Source: a virus (lineage: Duplodnaviria; Heunggongvirae; Uroviricota; Caudoviricetes). Taken from it: 22,496 bases of DNA. Both the position numbers and the translations under genes were made by a program. Positions 1,818-9,437 of the stretch are shown piece after piece. Positions within the stretch are counted from its first letter, which is position 1; every line of letters begins with the position of its first letter. The stretch lies in IMG/VR virus record IMGVR_UViG_3300000301_000103. The stretch is one strand, 5' to 3'. The notes beneath the pieces are model-generated. The model had not been told where the DNA came from. It saw only the letters and a program-made list of their open reading frames with translations, and made no database searches.

Positions 1818-2033
1818 TCAGCTTAGAGCAACGACATTTGCTGCTGCTGGGCCTTTAGCCCCATTCTCGATAGAGAATTCGACCTGCTGGCCTTCTTCCA
1901 AAGTGCGGAAATTATTACTCTGAATTGCCGAAAAATGTACAAAAACATCTTTACTGCCATCAGCAGGAGAAATAAAGCCAAAGCCTTTATCAGAGTTAAA
2001 CCATTTTACTAAACCAGTCATTTTATTAGACAT
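1818..2033 (-). CDS. Cold shock protein, CspA family (71 aa)
   Basis: Translation [71 protein letters not shown] matches the CspA pattern including the RNP-like KGFGFI and VFVHF motifs. Start set at the internal ATG (2031-2033) preceded by TAAGAAGGTAATATCT, not the longer ORF-track start. Confidence 0.9.
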
Positions 2034-2250
2034 AGATATTACCTTCTTAATTTTGTGAGCCACATAGTGCGGCGAGAATTTGATCTGTATAGATTGGGAC
2101 TTACTTAGGCACTTAAGGAGGAGACTCACGAAGAAGGGAAATCAGAAGATAACACTGAACTGAGACTGCTTTACTAAAACTGCTTACATAAGGTCTGTCT
2201 TGCAAACCAACGATGCTATTAACGCATACCCCTTCTTTTCATGCAACCTT
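2034..2250 (-). promoter_or_regulatory. cspA-type promoter and long 5' leader with cold-box-like sequence
   Basis: On the minus strand: AT-rich upstream element, TTGCAT (-35, plus 2241-2246), 18-nt spacer, TTAATA (-10, plus 2217-2222), then a ~175-nt leader. Its start (UUGGUUUGCAAGACAGACC...) and end (AUUAAGAAGGUAAUAUCUAUG) resemble the E. coli cspA leader as I recall it. Confidence 0.5.
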
Positions 2251-2337
2251 TATTTTTCAAAGATAACTAATTTTTGTCACCATTGGTTTAGTAAACGTTA
2301 ACGAACCAGACGATGCCAGACACCTTTACAGAGAACA

Positions 2338-2359
2338 GATGCCCGCCAATTGGCGGGCA
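2338..2359 (-). terminator. 22-bp perfect palindrome ATGCCCGCCAATTGGCGGGCAT just downstream of the minus-strand HTH gene
   Basis: 9-bp GC-rich stems with AATT loop, 4 nt after the stop at 2363-2365; flanking T-run is modest. Confidence 0.5.
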
Positions 2360-2362
2360 TCA

Positions 2363-2926
2363 TTATGCGCATTTCGCAATATCTTTGCGGCGTTTAATCA
2401 GTTTCTCCGCAATTTGCTCTATTTCGTTGAAATCTTTCGAGACGCTGTTTCGAAGCGCCAGATTCCATTTACTCAAAGTTCGGGCATTTTGGACAATTTG
2501 ATCGCCCTCTTTAAGTCGTCCGTTATTCATGAGCCATTCAGCCACATCAGCCCAATCCCAGAGAGGAGACTGGCCTTTTATGCGTTGTACAGGGCAAGGG
2601 AAGTCGCCGCTTCCGCGCTTACCGTCTTTGAGCAACGCCACTGCCTGGCGAGACAGGTCTGTCAGTTCCGCGATATCGCTTAAGCCCACAAGAGCCGAGT
2701 CGACGGATTCAACAATTGCACCGATACCGGCTGATTCAATATTGTCGACCGCAGATGCGATAGCTGCATCAAGTGATTGTGCTTCGCGGTCAAATTCTAC
2801 ATAGACGGAGTTTCCATATGCGCAAATTAGCGCATCGTCACAGCCGTTTTGGTACAGCGCGTCTTCCAGTCCTTCCGTCTCATACGATACGCCTGAGAGC
2901 GTCAGAGTGAAGTTATAAAGCGCCAT
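2363..2926 (-). CDS. DNA-binding protein with XRE-type helix-turn-helix (possible antitoxin or repressor)
   Basis: Start ATG (plus 2924-2926) preceded by AAAGGAAAACT; HTH-like segment LVGLSDIAELTDLSRQAVALLKDGKR. The ORF-track start 12 codons upstream lacks an RBS. Confidence 0.6.
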   Translation of the reverse strand: MALYNFTLTLSGVSYETEGLEDALYQNGCDDALICAYGNSVYVEFDREAQSLDAAIASAVDNIESAGIGAIVESVDSALVGLSDIAELTDLSRQAVALLKDGKRGSGDFPCPVQRIKGQSPLWDWADVAEWLMNNGRLKEGDQIVQNARTLSKWNLALRNSVSKDFNEIEQIAEKLIKRRKDIAKCA

Positions 2927-2986
2927 AGTTTTCCTTTGAAGATAGTTGGACAGTTTCTGCAAAAGGCGGCTAATGCCGCCTTGAAA

Positions 2987-3295
2987 TCATTTACAACGAT
3001 CAACCATTCGTTTGATCTGTTTGGCATGGTTTTCGGGATTACCCGGAGTCGACCATACGCTCATTTGGNNNNNNNNNNNNNNNNNNNNNNNNNNNNNNNN
3101 NNNNNNNNNNNNNNNNNNNNNNNNNNNNNNNNNNNNNNNNNNNNNNNNNNNNNNAGTTTTGTGTTCACCTTCTGGATTACCGCATCGCAGTCTGCAAAAA
3201 CAATGTGCAGCACCACCAGCAGCTACCCAGATCCAGCCTTTACTTAATGCATAGTCAATGGCTGCTTGAATATGCTTATTCGGATGTTGCTTCAT
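2987..3295 (-). CDS. Small hypothetical protein, first gene of a two-gene module (interrupted by N-run 3069-3154)
   Basis: ATG at plus 3293-3295 preceded by GGAGG and a sigma70-like promoter; N-term MKQHPNKHIQAAIDYALSKGWIWVAAGGAAHCF. Middle of the protein is hidden by Ns. Confidence 0.5.
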   Translation of the reverse strand: MKQHPNKHIQAAIDYALSKGWIWVAAGGAAHCFCRLRCGNPEGEHKTXXXXXXXXXXXXXXXXXXXXXXXXXXXXXQMSVWSTPGNPENHAKQIKRMVDRCK

Positions 3296-3312
3296 TCGCC
3301 TCCGATAATAGT

Positions 3313-3342
3313 ATTCTATTCACAGTGTTGACATCTGTCAAC
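3313..3342 (-). promoter_or_regulatory. Sigma70-like promoter with overlapping palindromic operator GTTGACATCTGTCAAC
   Basis: Minus strand reads TTGACA - 17 nt - TAGAAT - 9 nt - GGAGG - CGA - ATG. The 16-bp palindrome at 3327-3342 overlaps the -35. Confidence 0.55.
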
Positions 3343-3529
3343 GGCGACTGAATTTCATCCGTTCATGCCACACCCCCATCCATCTCATGTATGTGACCTA
3401 AAGATGGTCAGCACAGCTTACCAAAATAAGACAACTAATTATCTTCGGTGATCTCAATATCTTCCCCTGAACAAAGTTGACATGACGCCATAAACCCGTT
3501 CTCTGTTTGATATAATTGATACAGATTTT

Positions 3530-3548
3530 ATAAGTAGGAACCTATTAG
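3530..3548 (+). promoter_or_regulatory. Recurrent imperfect palindrome site 1 (ATAAGTAGG-AA-CCTATTAG)
   Basis: Member of a six-copy intergenic motif family (half-site about ATAGGTA / TACCTAT); overlaps a possible TTGATA-16 nt-TATAAG promoter. Confidence 0.4.
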
Positions 3549-3549
3549 A

Positions 3550-3981
3550 GTGAACACTGATATTTTTTCTAAAATCATGGCCGATCTGGAGTTCGACCGC
3601 GACAACCTTGAGGAAGTATGGCGTAAACAGCCACGGCTTTTAATGGAGTATGGGTCAAAACTAGCGCAGGCAGATCGAGATGTCGCAGAGGCAAAACTTA
3701 ACCTTGAAGCTGTTGAAGCAAAGCTATACGACACAGAGCGTAAGAACTTGAGTATGAACGGCATTAAGTTCAACGAGTCTGTACTGGACGCTAAGGTTAA
3801 AACAAACCCACAGTATCTGTCTAAACGGCAGAAGTTGGATGAAGCACGGCACATCGCAGACATATACAAACATGCTGTCGCCGCCTTTTCGCATCGCAGA
3901 GACATGATCGTTCAGGCGTCAAAGATGGCCATCGTTGAATTAGAGCGATTAGGCTCTGAACGCTTTATTACTCCCCGTTGA
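3550..3981 (+). CDS. Hypothetical protein, possibly a UvsY-like recombination mediator (143 aa)
   Basis: GTG start 9 nt after AGGAA. Size and scattered residue pattern (e.g. SVLDAKVKTNPQY) resemble T4 UvsY as I recall it; this is a weak by-eye similarity. Confidence 0.5.
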   Translation: MNTDIFSKIMADLEFDRDNLEEVWRKQPRLLMEYGSKLAQADRDVAEAKLNLEAVEAKLYDTERKNLSMNGIKFNESVLDAKVKTNPQYLSKRQKLDEARHIADIYKHAVAAFSHRRDMIVQASKMAIVELERLGSERFITPR

Positions 3982-4098: not shown

Positions 4099-5203
4099 AT
4101 GTCTAAGACATTACTTGATTTGCTTAACAAAACTCGTGAAGACATTGCCGCCAAACGTGGCAACAACGTTGATCTGACTCGCTTAAAAGACGGCGTCAAC
4201 TATATCCGCATCTTCCCGAATAAAGACGACCCAAACGGTAAGTTCTTCCAGACTTTCGGTATGCACTACGTTAAGTATCAGAACGAGGAAGGTAAAGAAG
4301 CAACCAACGCTTATATTTGTGAGCAACATACTCACGGTCGCGCTTGTCAGCTATGCGAAATGGTGATGGAAGGTCGCGCTCGTCACAAGGGTAACAAAGC
4401 AATGGAAGAACGCATCGGTCAAATGCGTGCCACTCCTCGCTACCTGGTCAACGGCATTCTTTCTGCTCGTGAGGATTTCGCAGATGCTGAGAAATGCCAG
4501 TTAATCGAGCTGCCGTCTACTGTATTCGATGATATCTGCAAAGCAATCACCGAAGACATCGCTGATGATATCGGCAATCCACTGAGCAAAGAGGAAGGCT
4601 ACGCATTCCTGATTAAACGTACTGGCTCTGGTCGCGATACCAAATATGACGTCTCGCCTAAGCGTAAAGTCTACAAAGGCGATATCGAAGATAAATTCTG
4701 GAACACCCAGCATGATCTGATCGCATACGCAAATCAGGCTGATGAAACTCGTCTTCTGTCGACAGTTCGCACTATGGGTCGTCTGATTGGCATCGCTGCA
4801 CCAACTGCCGCAGCATCTGCACCAGCAATTTCCTCAACCGCGAAAACATCGGCTGCGGCACTACCTGGATTTGGCTCTGTCACTGGTCATACAGAAGGAG
4901 CGACGGCTGTAGCAACCGCGCACACACCGGCTTCTGAACCAACCAGTCTGGTTGATGAAGAAATCCTCCGTGCCGTTGAAACTGAATTTAAACCAGAGGC
5001 AAGTTCCGCTGCCGTTGCCGTATCAGTCAAAGAGTCTGAAGCAGTCGCAGCGACATCTGTAGCAACCGCATCTGCGACGGAAGATNNNNNNNNNNNNNNN
5101 NNNNNNNNNNNNNNNNNNNNNNNNNNNNNNNNNNNNNNNNNNNNNNNNNNNNNNNNNNNNNNNNNNNCTGGATGACCTACTGAGAGAGCTGGACTCTCTG
5201 TAA
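4099..5203 (+). CDS. Single-stranded DNA-binding protein, T4 gp32-like (zinc-binding), with Ala/Ser/Thr-rich linker and acidic tail
   Basis: ATG preceded by AAGGAG; YIRIFPNKDDPNGKFF resembles the gp32 N-terminal region; Cys-x3-His-x5-Cys-x2-Cys (CEQHTHGRACQLC) fits the gp32 zinc site pattern. After N-run 5086-5167 the tail LDDLLRELDSL ends at TAA 5201-5203 in a different frame. Confidence 0.7.
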
Positions 5204-6706: not shown

Positions 6707-9437
6707 ATGGCAAAAGGAAAATCCGCACTGGCACTTGCTCTGAAAAAGAAAATCGGTAGCAACGACGAAATTCAGAAAGTAACTCATTGGATTGACACAG
6801 GCTTTCCTCCGTTAAACAAAGCTATTTCCGGTCGTTACGATGGCGGTTTCCCATGTGGTCGTATCGTAGAAGTATTCGGGCCACCAAGCGCGGGGAAATG
6901 TGTTACCGCAGACACCATGCTGCTGACGGAGCGTGGAATGGTAACAGTGAAAGAGTTGTTTGAGATTGAAGGGTACAAAGCGACATGCACTACTCGCGAT
7001 GTAGAGCATAACGTTGGACTCATCAATGAAAATGGCGTGATAGAGAAGACCTCACACCTGACATGGAACAACCGTCGCAAATTCAAGCGTATTAAGCTGG
7101 CATCAGGCGGTTATATCGAGGCTACGTTCCGTCACCCAATCCGTGTGGTTGACGACTTAGGTAATGTCGTCTGGCGACATGCTGAAAAAATCAGTGTAGG
7201 CGACACGATTCCTTCAATGGTTGGCACACATCAATTCGGCGATCAGCACCTGGATGCCAATATCGCAAAACTGATGGGCTATTTAATTGCTGACGGATAC
7301 GTGGCCTCTGAAAATTCAGTGAATTTTTCTAACACAGATCCTTTCATCAAGGATGAGTACTACCGCCTCATTTCGCTGGTATCAGACAAGATGCCAGTTG
7401 CGAGAAAACATAACGGCTCGGAAGACCATGTGCTGTTTAGCAAAGAGGTGCGTTCGCTGCTTTTTAAAGAATATGGTCTGGAGTATGAGAAAGCTGCTGG
7501 CAAGCAGGTTCCGTTGAGTGTGCGTCGCGCCAATAGCGAGGCTCAAATTGCATTCCTTCGCGGCTACTTTGAGCTGGAATGCCACGTCAATGATGGTCGC
7601 TGCATTGAGGTTGTGAGCGCGAGTGGGCTGCTGCTACAGCAAATTCGCCTCATGCTCCTGAATCTGGGGATTACGTCAACTATCTCTGAAAAACACGTCG
7701 CGGGTTATGAAAATACATATTACCGGCTGTCATTCAGTGGCTCTAATTACGACCTTTTTCTGTCAACGATTGGTTTCGAATCTCCGGCACGTTTATCAGT
7801 GGCAACCAAACGGGACATTGGTTTTGACCGCACTTACTCAGGCTATGTTCCGCACATCAGCGGCTTAGTGAAATCACTCNNNNNNNNNNNNNNNNNNNNN
7901 NNNNNNNNNNNNNNNNNNNNNNNNNNNNNNNNNNNNNNNNNNNNNNNNNNNNNNNNNNNNNNNNNNNNNNNNNNCACCCGTGAAGACTACGCTCTGGTAG
8001 ACCACGTTATTGGCCGCGGCGATCGTGTCGGAATAGACAAACTGCGAGAAATCTATGTCTCCTTCATTGGCAGAAAGAATCGTTTTAACGAGCATCTGTT
8101 TGCACAACTGGCAGCGGTAATTGGCTCTAACTTGTTCTACGACGAAGTCGTGGCTATTGAGGAAGGTGAAGCACCAACGTTCGACGTAGCGATGCCGGAA
8201 ACACACTCNNNNNNNNNNNNNNNNNNNNNNNNNNNNNNNNNNNNNNNNNNNNNNNNNNNNNNNNNNNNNNNNNNNNNNNNNNNNNNNNNNNNNNNNNNNN
8301 NNNNNNNNGCCACAACACATTCCTTGCAACAGCAGCGATGATCTCCGCTCAAAAACAAGATGGTCTGGCGGTATTCCTCGATCATGAAAACAGTTTTGAC
8401 GTTGGCCTGGCTGCAGCCAATGGCCTGAACGCAGATGAGGATGACGGTCAGTGGGTATACAAGCANNNNNNNNNNNNNNNNNNNNNNNNNNNNNNNNNNN
8501 NNNNNNNNNNNNNNNNNNNNNNNNNNNNNNNNNNNNNNNNNNNNNNNNNNNNNNNNNNNNNNNNNNNNNNNNNNNNNNNNNNNNNNNNNNNNNNNNNNNN
8601 NNNNNNNNNNNNNNNNNNNNNNNNNNNNNNNNNNNNNNNNATCGTGGCTGACTCTCTTGCGTCTATGGTTCCGAACTCCAAAGCCGAGAAGTTCGAAAAG
8701 ATGGCTGAAGGCACAGCCAAAGACAAAGATCAGCTAAACATGAACGACAATACGGCACTGGCTCGTGCGACGAGNNNNNNNNNNNNNNNNNNNNNNNNNN
8801 NNNNNNNNNNNNNNNNNNNNNNNNNNNNNNNNNNNNNNNNNNNNNNNNNNNNNNNNNNNNNNNNNNNNNNNNNNNNNNNNNNNNNCACGCAAATACAACG
8901 CCTGCATCATCTTCTTGAATCAGGTTCGCACAAAAATCGGTGTAATGTTTGGCGACCCTACTACGTCGCCAGGTGGAGATTCACCGAAGTTCTACGCTTC
9001 TGTACGTATCCGTCTTGGTGCATCGGTGATGAAGGATGGTAAAGAGAAGATCGGCCAGGACGTAGGCGCAGAATGCATCAAAAACAAAGTTGCACCACCG
9101 TATGGCAAATGCACCTGGAAATTCTACTTCGATCCTACTCGTGGCCTCGACGTTATCGAGTCGCTCGTCGAGTACATGCTGGAAGAAGGATACCTGCCAA
9201 AGAACGCCAGCGGTCGAGTAGAAATTGGTGACAAGAAATACACCAAATCACAAATCGTCGAGATGTATCGGGAGAAGCCACNNNNNNNNNNNNNNNNNNN
9301 NNNNNNNNNNNNNNNNNNNNNNNNNNNNNNNNNNNNNNNNNNNNNNNNNNNNNNNNNNNNNNNNNNNNNNNGCGGCTTTACAGGCAATCGACGACCGGAG
9401 ATCAAAAGACAATCCCACCGAGTCAGTAGAAGAGTAA
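6707..9437 (+). CDS. recA: RecA-family recombinase interrupted by an intein
   Basis: ATG preceded by AAAGGAG. Walker A GPPSAGK is followed directly by an intein; C-extein has IIFLNQVRTKIGVMFGDPTTSPGGDSPKFYASVRIRL, the RecA core signature. Four N-runs lie inside the gene and frames shift across three; stop TAA 9435-9437. Confidence 0.8.
6899..8316 (+). other. Intein with LAGLIDADG homing-endonuclease domain, inserted in the RecA P-loop
   Basis: Starts with Cys right after GPPSAGK (CVTADTMLL, block A); TxxH block B (EATFRHP); LAGLIDADG-like LMGYLIADGY and IAFLRGYFELE; block F-like TFDVAMPETH; ends HN followed by Thr (cac aac aca at 8311-8319). N-runs 7880-7974 and 8209-8308 lie inside. Confidence 0.7.

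What the first reader, a model, noticed from the sequence alone, without database searches (positions are those of the whole stretch)
2363..3342. Two-gene minus-strand module (small protein plus HTH regulator) behind a promoter with a palindromic operator: toxin-antitoxin-like or repressor cassette
A near-consensus promoter (TTGACA-17-TAGAAT) overlaps a 16-bp palindrome GTTGACATCTGTCAAC. It drives a ~100-aa protein followed 58 nt later by a 187-aa protein with a central XRE-type HTH, ending at a GC-rich palindromic terminator. Small protein first and HTH protein second behind an autoregulatory operator is the layout of higBA/hicAB-type toxin-antitoxin pairs, but the small protein is partly masked and I cannot assign a toxin family.
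Basis: inference. Interest (0 to 1): 0.5.

Follow-up and report, generated by a model that had tools for sequence, protein, structure and literature searches.

The report
HicA-like toxin–antitoxin cassette of a phage-plasmid
This is a self-regulated two-gene cassette on an SSU5-type E. coli phage-plasmid, most likely a distant, untested relative of HicA-type toxin–antitoxin pairs; it has already been predicted as such and is listed as a candidate anti-phage system.

Summary

- **Source.** The window is about 99.9% identical to Escherichia phage Cyrano, the pLF82 phage-plasmid of E. coli LF82.
- **Small protein length.** It is 74 aa, not about 100. The 86-N run replaces only 2 nt, and every anchorable N-run in the window is 75-84 nt too long.
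- **Gene spacing.** The two genes are 60 nt apart, not 58.
- **HTH type.** The helix-turn-helix is an AlpA/excisionase-like winged type, not XRE.

**Regulation.** The operator GTTGAC-N4-GTCAAC overlaps the -35 hexamer. It is exact at this promoter in 46 of 53 bacterial and 46 of 58 viral related loci, absent from the rest of those 867 kb, and unique in the 108-kb Cyrano genome.

**Large protein.** It is not HicB. It has a ferredoxin-like N-domain, then the AlpA-like HTH, then two long helices.

**Toxin-antitoxin signs.**
- The small gene always had the large gene beside it, in 58 of 58 viral loci.
- Seven bacterial loci keep only the large gene, some with clean deletions of the small one.
- The pair sits in cargo spots of mobile elements.

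**Prior annotation.** Cyrano's annotators already named the pair HicA/HicB and found it expressed in lysogens. PADLOC lists it as the untested candidate PDC-M06.

**Verdict.** A divergent HicA-like toxin-antitoxin cassette. Toxicity, neutralisation and repression are inferred, not shown.

The parts
3327..3342 (.). Operator: perfect palindrome GTTGAC-ATCT-GTCAAC (6-bp half-sites, 10 bp centre to centre) overlapping the -35 hexamer
   Evidence: It is the only exact match in the window and in the whole 108,379-bp Cyrano genome. In 53 related bacterial loci (866,571 bp) the exact motif occurs 46 times, always at this promoter and never elsewhere. It is exact in 46 of 58 viral loci. Flanks and the central 4 nt vary.
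3313..3341 (-). Sigma-70 promoter TTGACA (3341-3336) - 17 nt - TAGAAT (3318-3313)
   Evidence: It matches 11 of 12 consensus positions. Among 70 distinct operator contexts, a -10 element of form TAnnnT sits at 17-nt spacing in 61, and 58 match at least 4 of 6 positions. Both genes are transcribed in LF82 lysogens at 30x and 14x the local background (PMC9928086).
3299..3303 (-). Shine-Dalgarno GGAGG of the small gene, 3 nt before the ATG at 3295
   Evidence: Read directly from the sequence. CGGAGG is conserved in most related loci.
2987..3295 (-). Small gene: a HicA-fold protein, putative toxin, truly 74 aa (225 nt). It looks like 102 codons here only because of the padded N-run
3069..3154 (.). 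Padded gap: 86 N standing for 2 nt (CA on the coding strand)
   Evidence: The flanks anchor 2 nt apart in Cyrano. All 15 anchorable N-runs are 75-84 nt too long.
2963..2982 (-). Intercistronic hairpin AAGGCGGC-AUUA-GCCGCCUU followed by UU. It could be a partial terminator or an mRNA 3'-end stabiliser between the two genes
   Evidence: The 66-nt intergenic stretch (2927-2992) that contains it folds at -16.1 kcal/mol, z = -2.2. By my reading of the fold listing, roughly 30 of 46 bacterial loci have a GC-rich hairpin of unrelated sequence at this position, some with a U-tract. Loci with short or overlapping spacers lack it.
2363..2926 (-). Large gene, 187 aa: putative antitoxin and autorepressor
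   Evidence: It is identical to CYRAN_50. Profile matches are phrog_2620 at 2e-105 and PADLOC PDC-M06B at 1.3e-32. The AF2 model has pLDDT 90.8. It lies directly downstream of the small gene in 46 of 53 bacterial and 58 of 58 viral loci.
2702..2926 (-). N-terminal ferredoxin-like domain (residues 1-75, b-a-b-b-a-b), inferred to bind the toxin
2522..2701 (-). AlpA/excisionase-like winged helix-turn-helix (residues 76-135; helices 82-89 and 93-100, wing, helix 125-134)
   Evidence: hhalign against a PF05930-positive AlpA protein gives P = 3.8e-4 over 55 columns at 31% identity. The control against an HTH_3 protein gives P = 0.38. Nine of 32 homologues give weak Phage_AlpA hits. PHROG excisionase families score 2e-4 and 1e-3. 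PGAP names some copies 'AlpA family transcriptional regulator'.
2369..2500 (-). Two long C-terminal helices (residues 143-186), inferred dimerisation element
   Evidence: The model shows helices 143-162 and 166-186. Dimerisation is inferred from the twofold-symmetric operator.
2338..2361 (-). Intrinsic terminator GAUGCCCGCC-AAUU-GGCGGGCAUC plus a U-rich tail, 1 nt after the stop codon
   Evidence: Found by the terminator scan. It folds at -21.8 kcal/mol, z = -4.9, and 0 of 200 shuffles fold as well.

Best explanation
The region is a self-contained, autoregulated two-gene cassette carried as a lysogeny-expressed 'moron' by an SSU5-type phage-plasmid. It most likely works as a type II toxin-antitoxin pair.

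**Proposed mechanism**
1. A strong sigma-70 promoter transcribes the 74-aa gene first. Its product has a HicA-like (dsRBD-like) fold, an invariant His just before strand β2, and an added probable Cys/His metal clip. It is inferred to be an RNA-cleaving or RNA-binding toxin.
2. The 187-aa gene follows after a hairpin that may attenuate read-through.
3. The 187-aa protein is inferred to neutralise the small protein through its ferredoxin-like N-domain.
4. It is also inferred to bind, as a dimer through its AlpA-like winged HTH, the palindrome GTTGAC-N4-GTCAAC that covers the -35 hexamer, and so repress the operon.
5. Loss of the plasmid, or a shut-off of host gene expression by another phage, would then free the toxin. 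The outcome would be plasmid addiction and/or abortive-infection defence.

**Shown here:** the anatomy, the fold similarity, operator and promoter conservation, gene-pair conservation, the distribution, and (from the literature) transcription in lysogens.

**Inferred:** toxicity, RNase activity, neutralisation, repression and the biological role.
For: **Identity**
- The window is about 99.9% identical to phage Cyrano.

**Small protein**
- The model has pLDDT 88.9 and topology a1-b1-b2-b3-a2.
- hhalign against five PDB HicA sequences aligns GW...G-S-x-H-x-F with HicA GW...GSHHHF. P is 0.0015, or 0.00094 with a 150-sequence profile.
- H31 is conserved in 144 of 150 distant homologues.

**Operator and promoter**
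- The operator is exact in 46 of 53 bacterial loci and occurs nowhere else in 867 kb.
- It is exact in 46 of 58 viral loci and unique in the Cyrano genome.
- A -10 element sits at a fixed 17-nt spacing in 61 of 70 distinct contexts.

**Gene-pair asymmetry**
- All 58 small genes in viral loci have the large gene downstream.
- Seven of 53 bacterial loci have the large gene only. L012 and L038 retain the first codons of a deleted small gene. L012, L016 and L037 retain the operator.

**Context**
- A conserved site in SSU5-like phage-plasmids.
- A lone insert among housekeeping genes in Providencia.
- A P4-like island beside a RelE-HTH pair in Prodigiosinella.
- A P2-like prophage cargo spot beside Phd/YoeB in Histophilus.

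**Prior predictions and expression**
- Both PADLOC PDC-M06 models match.
- Both genes are expressed in lysogens and were annotated HicA/HicB by the Cyrano authors (PMC9928086).
Against: - No HicA, HicB or other toxin/antitoxin sequence profile matches either protein or any of 178 small-protein and 32 large-protein homologues.
- The hhalign probabilities are only 17-22%. In that alignment the catalytic HicA His24 pairs with Ala30, and His31 pairs with the next residue.
- The conserved Cys/His set has no counterpart in HicA and could indicate a different, metal-dependent activity.
- The large protein shares neither fold nor HTH type with HicB.
- The intercistronic hairpin and the 30x versus 14x transcript levels would give more 'toxin' than 'antitoxin' message. 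That is the opposite of the usual expectation, although hicAB, higBA and mqsRA also place the toxin first.
- No experiment on toxicity, binding or defence exists for this family. The PDC systems are explicitly untested.
Confidence: 0.6

Rival explanations
1. The cassette is primarily an anti-phage (abortive infection or superinfection exclusion) system. The phage-plasmid would carry it to protect its lysogen. The HTH protein would act as the sensor or regulator, and the small protein as the effector released on infection. This overlaps with the toxin-antitoxin mechanism but makes defence, not plasmid addiction, the selected function.
For: - Both genes match PADLOC PDC-M06A and B, at 1.2e-19 and 1.3e-32.
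- That candidate was defined because the cassette occurs embedded in BREX, DISARM or type I RM loci, with 497 instances recorded.
- The pair sits in P2-like and P4-like cargo positions and next to a variable RM/retron region in Providencia.
- It is expressed during lysogeny.
Against: - PDC systems are explicitly untested.
- In the loci inspected here the pair is not embedded in a defence system.
- In 110 of 110 E. coli genomes it sits at one fixed site of a phage-plasmid. That fits a stably inherited maintenance module as well as it fits defence.
- Cyrano already carries two other toxin-antitoxin-like pairs.
Confidence: 0.25
2. There is no toxin. The large protein is an AlpA-type transcription factor of the phage-plasmid, and the small Cys/His protein is a metal-binding co-regulator or nucleic-acid-binding accessory, for example an anti-repressor or small regulator. 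On this view the resemblance to HicA is convergence on a common small fold.
For: - No toxin profile matches.
- C38, C/H48 and C73 are conserved, with a Cys-His swap typical of metal ligands.
- PHROG labels the large protein 'excisionase and transcriptional regulator'.
- The hairpin favours higher expression of the small gene.
Against: - The operator exists only at the cassette's own promoter in the whole Cyrano genome, so there is no regulon.
- The pair moves as a unit between unrelated contexts: chromosome, P2-like prophage, P4-like island and phage-plasmid. That is atypical for a regulator integrated into one element's circuitry.
- The small gene is deleted while the large gene, promoter and operator are kept (L012, L016, L037, L038). 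The converse was not seen in 58 viral loci.
Confidence: 0.12
3. The AlpA/MerR-like protein activates rather than represses the promoter, by MerR-style binding between -35 and -10.
For: The HTH belongs to the MerR/excisionase-like winged class. The operator spans positions from the -35 hexamer into the spacer.
Against: - MerR-type activation (established knowledge) requires an over-long 19-20-bp spacer. Here the spacer is the optimal 17 bp in 61 of 70 contexts, and the hexamers are near consensus.
- The promoter should therefore be strong on its own, and occupancy of the -35 hexamer should block RNA polymerase.
Confidence: 0.05

Closest known systems
HicAB type II toxin-antitoxin systems (E. 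coli HicAB, B. pseudomallei HicAB, Y. pestis HicA3B3, S. pneumoniae HicAB)
   Same: - The toxin-like gene is first and the DNA-binding partner second, in one operon.
- A conserved Gly/Ser-x-His lies at the entry to b2.
- The partner has two parts, a non-DNA-binding N-domain plus an HTH.
- A palindromic operator sits at the promoter.
   Different: - No match to the HicA_toxin Pfam profile in 178 homologues.
- It has an extra b2-b3 loop and C-terminal Cys/His positions, a probable metal site that HicA lacks.
- The partner's N-domain is ferredoxin-like rather than the HicB partial RNase-H-like fold.
- Its DNA-binding domain is an AlpA-like winged HTH placed mid-protein, not a C-terminal RHH or XRE HTH.
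- Two extra C-terminal helices are present.
PADLOC phage defence candidate PDC-M06 (Payne et al., bioRxiv 10.1101/2024.01.29.577857)
   Same: Both proteins match the PDC-M06A and PDC-M06B models, in the same order and adjacent. This is the same family.
   Different: PDC-M06 is only a 'guilt-by-embedding' candidate (cassette CAS_00046, 497 instances), with no functional test or mechanism. Here the cassette is not embedded in a defence system but sits in a phage-plasmid.
CYRAN_51 / CYRAN_50 of Escherichia phage Cyrano (pLF82), annotated 'HicA toxin protein' / 'putative antitoxin HicB' (Misson et al. 2023, PMC9928086)
   Same: It is the same locus. The large protein is identical, and the small protein is identical outside the padded gap. 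The genes were reported as morons expressed in the lysogen.
   Different: That annotation is a prediction with no experiment behind it. The 'HicB' label is not supported by fold or profile. RefSeq copies are named only 'hypothetical protein' and 'HTH/AlpA family transcriptional regulator'.
AlpA / excisionase-type (MerR-like winged HTH) regulators, Pfam PF05930 / HTH_17
   Same: The pattern LSxIAxLTGLSRQA...G.FP.P...G.SP.W.W..V..W aligns over the whole AlpA domain, with P = 3.8e-4 and 31% identity. Nine of 32 homologues give weak PF05930 hits.
   Different: - All hits are below the Pfam threshold.
- A roughly 20-residue insertion (residues 101-121) lies between helix 2 and the wing.
- The domain is embedded between a ferredoxin-like domain and a helical tail.
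- Nothing suggests a role in excision.

Membership tests
HicA toxin family (Pfam PF07927 HicA_toxin) | Significant match to the HicA_toxin sequence profile | tested here: not met
   No hit even at E <= 10 for the 74-aa protein. There were 0 hits among 28 close homologues and 0 among 150 distant ones at E <= 1. NCBIfam gave none. A profile search of PDB sequences found no HicA.
HicA toxin family (Pfam PF07927 HicA_toxin) | dsRBD-like a1-b1-b2-b3-a2 fold | tested here: met
HicA toxin family (Pfam PF07927 HicA_toxin) | Catalytic His at the start of b2, preceded by Gly-Ser (H24 in B. pseudomallei HicA; the PDB chains 4c26 and 6g26 carry Ala there) | tested here: inconclusive
   H31 is conserved in 144 of 150 homologues and lies directly before b2. 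hhalign pairs G28-S29 with G22-S23, but pairs H31 with H25 and A30 with H24, at P 0.0015 and 0.00094 and probability 17-22%. No structural superposition was available at residue level.
HicA toxin family (Pfam PF07927 HicA_toxin) | Ribosome-independent mRNA cleavage; growth arrest when expressed alone | not testable with these tools
   This needs expression and RNA-cleavage assays.
HicB antitoxin family | N-terminal HicB-type (partial RNase-H-like) toxin-binding domain | tested here: not met
HicB antitoxin family | C-terminal RHH or XRE-type DNA-binding domain | tested here: not met
   HTH_3 hit in 1 of 32 homologues at E = 0.19, and no RHH hit. hhalign against an HTH_3 protein gives P = 0.38, whereas an AlpA protein gives P = 3.8e-4.
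Type II toxin-antitoxin module (generic) | Two adjacent, co-oriented small genes forming one transcription unit with a promoter and a terminator | tested here: met
   The pairing is conserved in 46 of 53 bacterial and 58 of 58 viral loci.
Type II toxin-antitoxin module (generic) | Palindromic operator overlapping the promoter, for autoregulation by the antitoxin | tested here: met
   The sequence feature and its conservation are met. Actual binding and repression are not testable here.
Type II toxin-antitoxin module (generic) | Asymmetric decay: the antitoxin can persist alone, the toxin cannot | tested here: met
   Seven of 53 loci have the large gene only, with remnants of a deleted small gene in L012 and L038. 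None of 58 viral loci, and none of the 5 contexts looked up by the small protein, has the small gene alone. Caveat: the viral loci are redundant, and no bacterial scan was seeded with the small protein.
Type II toxin-antitoxin module (generic) | Toxicity of one product and neutralisation by direct binding of the other | not testable with these tools
   No complex prediction was possible because the structure jobs were exhausted. It needs co-expression and pull-down experiments.
PADLOC PDC-M06 candidate system | Adjacent genes matching the PDC-M06A and PDC-M06B HMMs | tested here: met
   PDC-M06A scores 1.2e-19 over residues 2-74. PDC-M06B scores 1.3e-32 over residues 3-161.
PADLOC PDC-M06 candidate system | Demonstrated protection against phage | not testable with these tools
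   The authors state that the 145 PDCs are untested. A full-text search for 'PDC-M06' found no paper.
   The model shows two helices, then a wing, then a third helix.
AlpA / excisionase-like winged HTH (PF05930, HTH_17) | Profile match above threshold; helix-turn-helix, then beta wing, then helix, with the G-x-FP-x-P ... W-x-x-x-E/D-(V/I)-x-x-W pattern | tested here: inconclusive
   The match is below the Pfam threshold: 9 of 32 members, best E = 0.025. Support comes from hhalign at P = 3.8e-4 over 55 columns, PHROG excisionase families at 2e-4 and 1e-3, the model topology and PGAP naming.

The most novel reading that the evidence does not exclude
The 74-aa protein would found a distinct, metal-clipped branch of the HicA fold. 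The family has 683 representatives at 50% identity, spanning gamma-proteobacteria to high-GC bacteria. Its partner would be a previously undescribed antitoxin architecture: ferredoxin-like domain, AlpA-type winged HTH and a helical tail. Together they would form a new toxin-antitoxin/abortive-infection family. SSU5-type phage-plasmids, including Y. pestis pMT1-type plasmids, would use it both to stay in the cell and to exclude competing phages.
Probability: 0.3. Interest if true: 0.55.

Novelty: new variant of a known kind. Interest (0 to 1): 0.35.

Why it matters
If the prediction holds, the hicAB-like design extends to a toxin invisible to current HicA profiles and to an antitoxin built from different domains.

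It would also give a function to a gene pair present in:
- about 2% of complete E. coli genomes (110 of 5,426, always on phage-plasmids of about 100-120 kb);
- 286 PLSDB plasmids, including 63 from Yersinia;
- phage SSU5.

Almost all of these copies are annotated 'hypothetical protein' plus 'HTH regulator'. The prediction would also convert the PADLOC candidate PDC-M06 into a mechanistically defined system. The operator GTTGAC-N4-GTCAAC is a clean, directly testable regulatory site.

Beyond that, the finding is ordinary. Phage-plasmids are known to carry several toxin-antitoxin modules, and this one was already predicted as HicAB-like.

Tried and rejected
1. **Sequence-profile assignment of the small protein.**
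   - Pfam, NCBIfam and a profile search of PDB sequences found no toxin family.
2. **HicB or XRE identity for the large protein.** Rejected.
3. **A 28-codon insertion hidden under the N-run.** Rejected, because every N-run is padded by about 79 nt and 13 viral contigs encode the 74-aa protein exactly.
4. **The large protein as a global phage regulator.** Rejected, because the operator is unique in the 108-kb genome.
5. **PD-(D/E)xK or HNH nuclease readings of the small protein.**
   - I set this aside because no conserved acidic or Lys motif lies in b2 or b3, and the positions of the conserved His do not fit a bba-Me finger.
6. **N-terminally extended homologues as informative domain fusions.** They look like mis-called starts in high-GC genomes.
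7. **Literature searches.** Searches for PDC-M06 and for characterised HicA-like defence systems of this type found nothing relevant.
Full report
**What the window is**

- Positions 2100-3700 match Escherichia phage Cyrano (OV696614.1, 108,379 bp) at 99.9% identity.
- Cyrano is the SSU5-like phage-plasmid pLF82 of the adherent-invasive E. coli strain LF82 (PMC9928086).
- In that record the two minus-strand genes are CYRAN_51 'HicA toxin protein' (74 aa) and CYRAN_50 'putative antitoxin HicB' (187 aa).
- They lie between the DNA polymerase III alpha gene and a divergently transcribed block encoding a UvsY-like protein, gp32-like SSB, an exonuclease and RecA.

**Checking the observation**

Confirmed features:
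- The promoter is TTGACA (3341-3336), 17 nt, TAGAAT (3318-3313). It matches 11 of 12 consensus positions.
- The perfect palindrome GTTGACATCTGTCAAC lies at 3327-3342.
- GGAGG lies 3 nt before the ATG at 3295.
- The second gene encodes 187 aa, starting at the ATG at 2926.
- The terminator hairpin at 2361-2338 folds at -21.8 kcal/mol with z = -4.9.

Corrections:
- **Small protein length.** It is 74 aa. The 86-N run corresponds to only 2 nt in Cyrano.
  - All 15 N-runs of the window that can be anchored in Cyrano are 75-84 nt longer than the sequence they replace, so they are padded gaps.
  - All homologues are 70-75 aa and read ...EHxxHQMSVWSTP... straight across the gap.
  - Thirteen IMG/VR contigs encode exactly the 74-aa protein.
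- **Gene spacing.** The spacer between the genes is 60 nt, not 58.
- **HTH type.** It is not XRE (see the large protein below).

**The operator and promoter are under selection**

A 7-bp-arm palindrome or an 11-of-12 promoter could each arise by chance once in a window of this size (my arithmetic). The comparative data are what decide.

- A scan of 185,579 bacterial and archaeal species' genomes with the large-protein alignment returned 53 loci.
- In their 866,571 bp, the exact motif GTTGAC-N4-GTCAAC occurs 46 times. Every occurrence is at the promoter position upstream of the module. The chance expectation is about 0.05, by my arithmetic.
- Among the 46 loci that have both genes, 43 carry the exact motif. 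The other three carry 1-2 mismatches, confined to the half that does not overlap the -35 hexamer.
- In 58 viral contigs, 46 have the exact motif.
- Across 70 distinct sequence contexts the flanks and the central four bases are only 30-55% conserved. A TAnnnT -10 element still sits at a 17-nt spacing in 61 of the 70.
- In the complete Cyrano genome the motif is unique, so the protein that reads it regulates only this cassette.
- Transcriptomes of the LF82 lysogen show both genes well above the prophage background, at 30x and 14x. The promoter is therefore active in the plasmid state.

**The small protein**

- *Profiles.*
  - No Pfam or NCBIfam family matches it.
  - PHROGs places it in phrog_5923, of unknown function.
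  - PADLOC places it in PDC-M06A.
- *Fold.*
  - An AlphaFold2 model built from 28 homologues is confident (pLDDT 88.9). Its topology is a1-b1-b2-(short helix)-b3-a2.
- *Profile-profile comparison.*
  - I compared it with five HicA sequences taken from PDB alignments. The result is weak but correctly placed: GW...G-S-x-H-x-F against GW...GSHHHF.
  - P is 0.0015, or 0.00094 with a 150-sequence profile.
- *Exhaustive search.*
  - A profile search of 1.84 billion representative proteins finds 683 relatives.
  - None of the best 150 hits HicA_toxin in Pfam.
- *Conservation in that wider set.*
  - H4 is conserved in 143 of 149, W21 in 146 of 150, H31 in 144 of 150 and C38 in 147 of 150.
  - T55-P56 are also conserved, H62 in 118 of 145 and C73 in 130 of 142.
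  - Position 48 is Cys in 109 sequences and His in 29. That interchange is typical of a metal ligand.
- *Reading.* The protein is a HicA-fold domain that carries an extra Cys/His clip, probably C38, C/H48, C73 and one His. It forms a family separate from Pfam HicA.

**The large protein**

- *Profiles and fold.*
  - Profiles give phrog_2620 'excisionase and transcriptional regulator' (2e-105) and PADLOC PDC-M06B (1.3e-32).
  - The model has pLDDT 90.8.
- *Three parts.*
  2. Residues 76-135 form a helix-turn-helix followed by a wing and a third helix.
  3. Residues 143-186 form two long helices.
- *HTH type.*
  - hhalign against a PF05930-positive AlpA protein from one of the fetched loci gives P = 3.8e-4 over 55 columns at 31% identity. 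An HTH_3 protein used as a control gives P = 0.38.
  - Nine of 32 homologues give weak Phage_AlpA hits, and one gives HTH_3.
  - RefSeq names some copies 'AlpA family transcriptional regulator'.
- *Fit with the operator.* A twofold-symmetric operator with half-sites 10 bp apart suits a dimer of such a domain. This is inference.

**Evidence for toxin-antitoxin logic**

- In 46 of 53 bacterial loci the small gene lies directly upstream of the large one, on the same strand.
- The seven exceptions have only the large gene.
  - L012 keeps the operator, promoter and first codons (ATGAAGAAA...) fused to the large gene's ribosome-binding site.
  - L038 keeps MKKHPNKEIQ fused to the intercistronic hairpin.
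  - L016 and L037 keep the operator.
- Conversely, all 58 viral loci found with the small protein have the large gene downstream. So do the five contexts looked up by exact small-protein sequence.
- The cassette moves as a unit between unrelated settings:
  - one fixed site of SSU5-like phage-plasmids;
  - a lone two-gene insert among housekeeping genes in Providencia;
  - an integrase/primase island beside a RelE-HTH pair and IS elements in Prodigiosinella;
  - a P2-like prophage cargo spot beside Phd/YoeB in Histophilus, where the two genes overlap;
  - next to an integrase and an IS110 element in Pseudoalteromonas.
- PADLOC's PDC-M06 was defined because the cassette also occurs embedded in BREX, DISARM or type I RM loci. 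It has 497 instances and is explicitly untested.

**The intercistronic hairpin**

A hairpin lies between the genes at 2982-2963. The 66-nt intergenic stretch containing it folds at -16.1 kcal/mol, z = -2.2.
- By my reading of the fold listing, roughly 30 of the 46 paired bacterial loci have a GC-rich hairpin at this position. The sequences are unrelated, and a few are followed by a U-tract.
- It may attenuate read-through or stabilise the upstream message. The 30x versus 14x transcript levels are compatible with either, but do not prove it.
- This would favour the small product over the large one, which is a mild argument against a simple toxin-antitoxin stoichiometry. I list it as such.

**Most likely mechanism (confidence about 0.6)**

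1. The large protein dimer binds the operator over the -35 hexamer and represses the operon.
2. Its N-domain sequesters the HicA-like small protein.
3. When synthesis stops, through plasmid loss or host shut-off by an invading phage, the small protein is freed and arrests growth, probably by acting on RNA.

Every functional step is inferred. The anatomy, fold similarity, conservation and distribution are shown.

Rivals:
- a primarily anti-phage role (0.25; this overlaps with the main model);
- a non-toxic regulator pair (0.12);
- MerR-style activation (0.05). The optimal 17-bp spacer argues against this one.

**Comparison with the known, and novelty**

- The cassette works like hicAB, but it fails the sequence-membership tests for both HicA and HicB, and its partner protein has a different architecture.
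- It is the same family as PADLOC PDC-M06 and the same locus as CYRAN_50/51. The idea is therefore not new. Only the annotation 'HicB', the 'XRE' call and the apparent 100-aa length needed correcting.
- I rate it a new variant of a known kind, of moderate-to-low interest.
- It is widespread. It occurs in 110 of 5,426 complete E. coli genomes, always on plasmids of about 100-120 kb, and in 286 PLSDB plasmids, 63 of them from Yersinia. SSU5 itself also carries it.
- It offers a very clean operator for experiments.

Noticed in passing
window N-runs, e.g. 1254-1337, 3069-3154, 5086-5167 (19 runs in all): Every N-run that can be anchored in phage Cyrano (15 of 19) is 75-84 nt longer than the sequence it replaces. 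For example, 86 N stand for 2 nt. ORFs that cross N-runs are therefore inflated by about 26-28 codons, and frames across them are unreliable.
   Followed up: yes
window 1818-2030 (-): A 70-aa CspA-type cold-shock protein gene (Pfam CSD, 1.3e-33) lies about 330 nt downstream of the module's terminator on the same strand. It falls in an 850-nt stretch with no annotated feature in the Cyrano record, between CYRAN_49 and CYRAN_50.
   Followed up: partly
window 6707-8341 and beyond (+): The RecA gene is interrupted by an intein right after the P-loop (…GPPSAGK|CVTADTMLL…). The homologue in Enterobacter phage-plasmids hits Intein_splicing, LAGLIDADG_3 and RecA_N.
   Followed up: no
L056 10053-14305: In Enterobacter SSU5-like phage-plasmids the DNA polymerase III alpha gene is split into a PHP/DNA_pol3_alpha/finger part and an HHH_6 part. 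A NUMOD4/HNH_3 homing-endonuclease gene lies between them.
   Followed up: no
small-protein homologues P0001-P0055, e.g. P0039: Many family members give sub-threshold Pfam RuBisCO_small hits: 22 of 28 close members (best E 1.2e-4) and 15 of 150 distant ones. One Shewanella member is named 'ribulose bisphosphate carboxylase small subunit' at NCBI, which is probably a misannotation.
   Followed up: partly
L006 (Yersinia pestis NCTC5923, 108-kb contig); L101-L106 and L108: In the Yersinia pestis plasmid contig L006, and in related viral contigs, the right half of the operator has decayed (GTTGACACGCGCTCAC). The -35 half is kept, which suggests relaxed autoregulation there. Sixty-three Yersinia plasmid records carry the small gene.
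   Followed up: partly
P0033 (Providencia, 44 contigs): This is a 95-aa variant of the small protein. Its C-terminal helix is replaced by unrelated sequence after ...VHAK. It may be a naturally inactivated copy.
   Followed up: no
wider small-protein family, P0176-P0324: The family has 683 representatives at E <= 1e-3 and reaches high-GC (actinobacteria-like) genomes. There the b2-b3 loop reads C-x(5-8)-C instead of C-x(9)-H. Apparent N-terminal extensions look like mis-called starts.
   Followed up: partly
L069 5631-9529 (Pseudoalteromonas sp. FUC4): Here the pair sits just downstream of a tyrosine recombinase gene (Phage_int_SAM_4 and Phage_integrase domains), among short unannotated ORFs and an IS110 transposase.
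   Followed up: no
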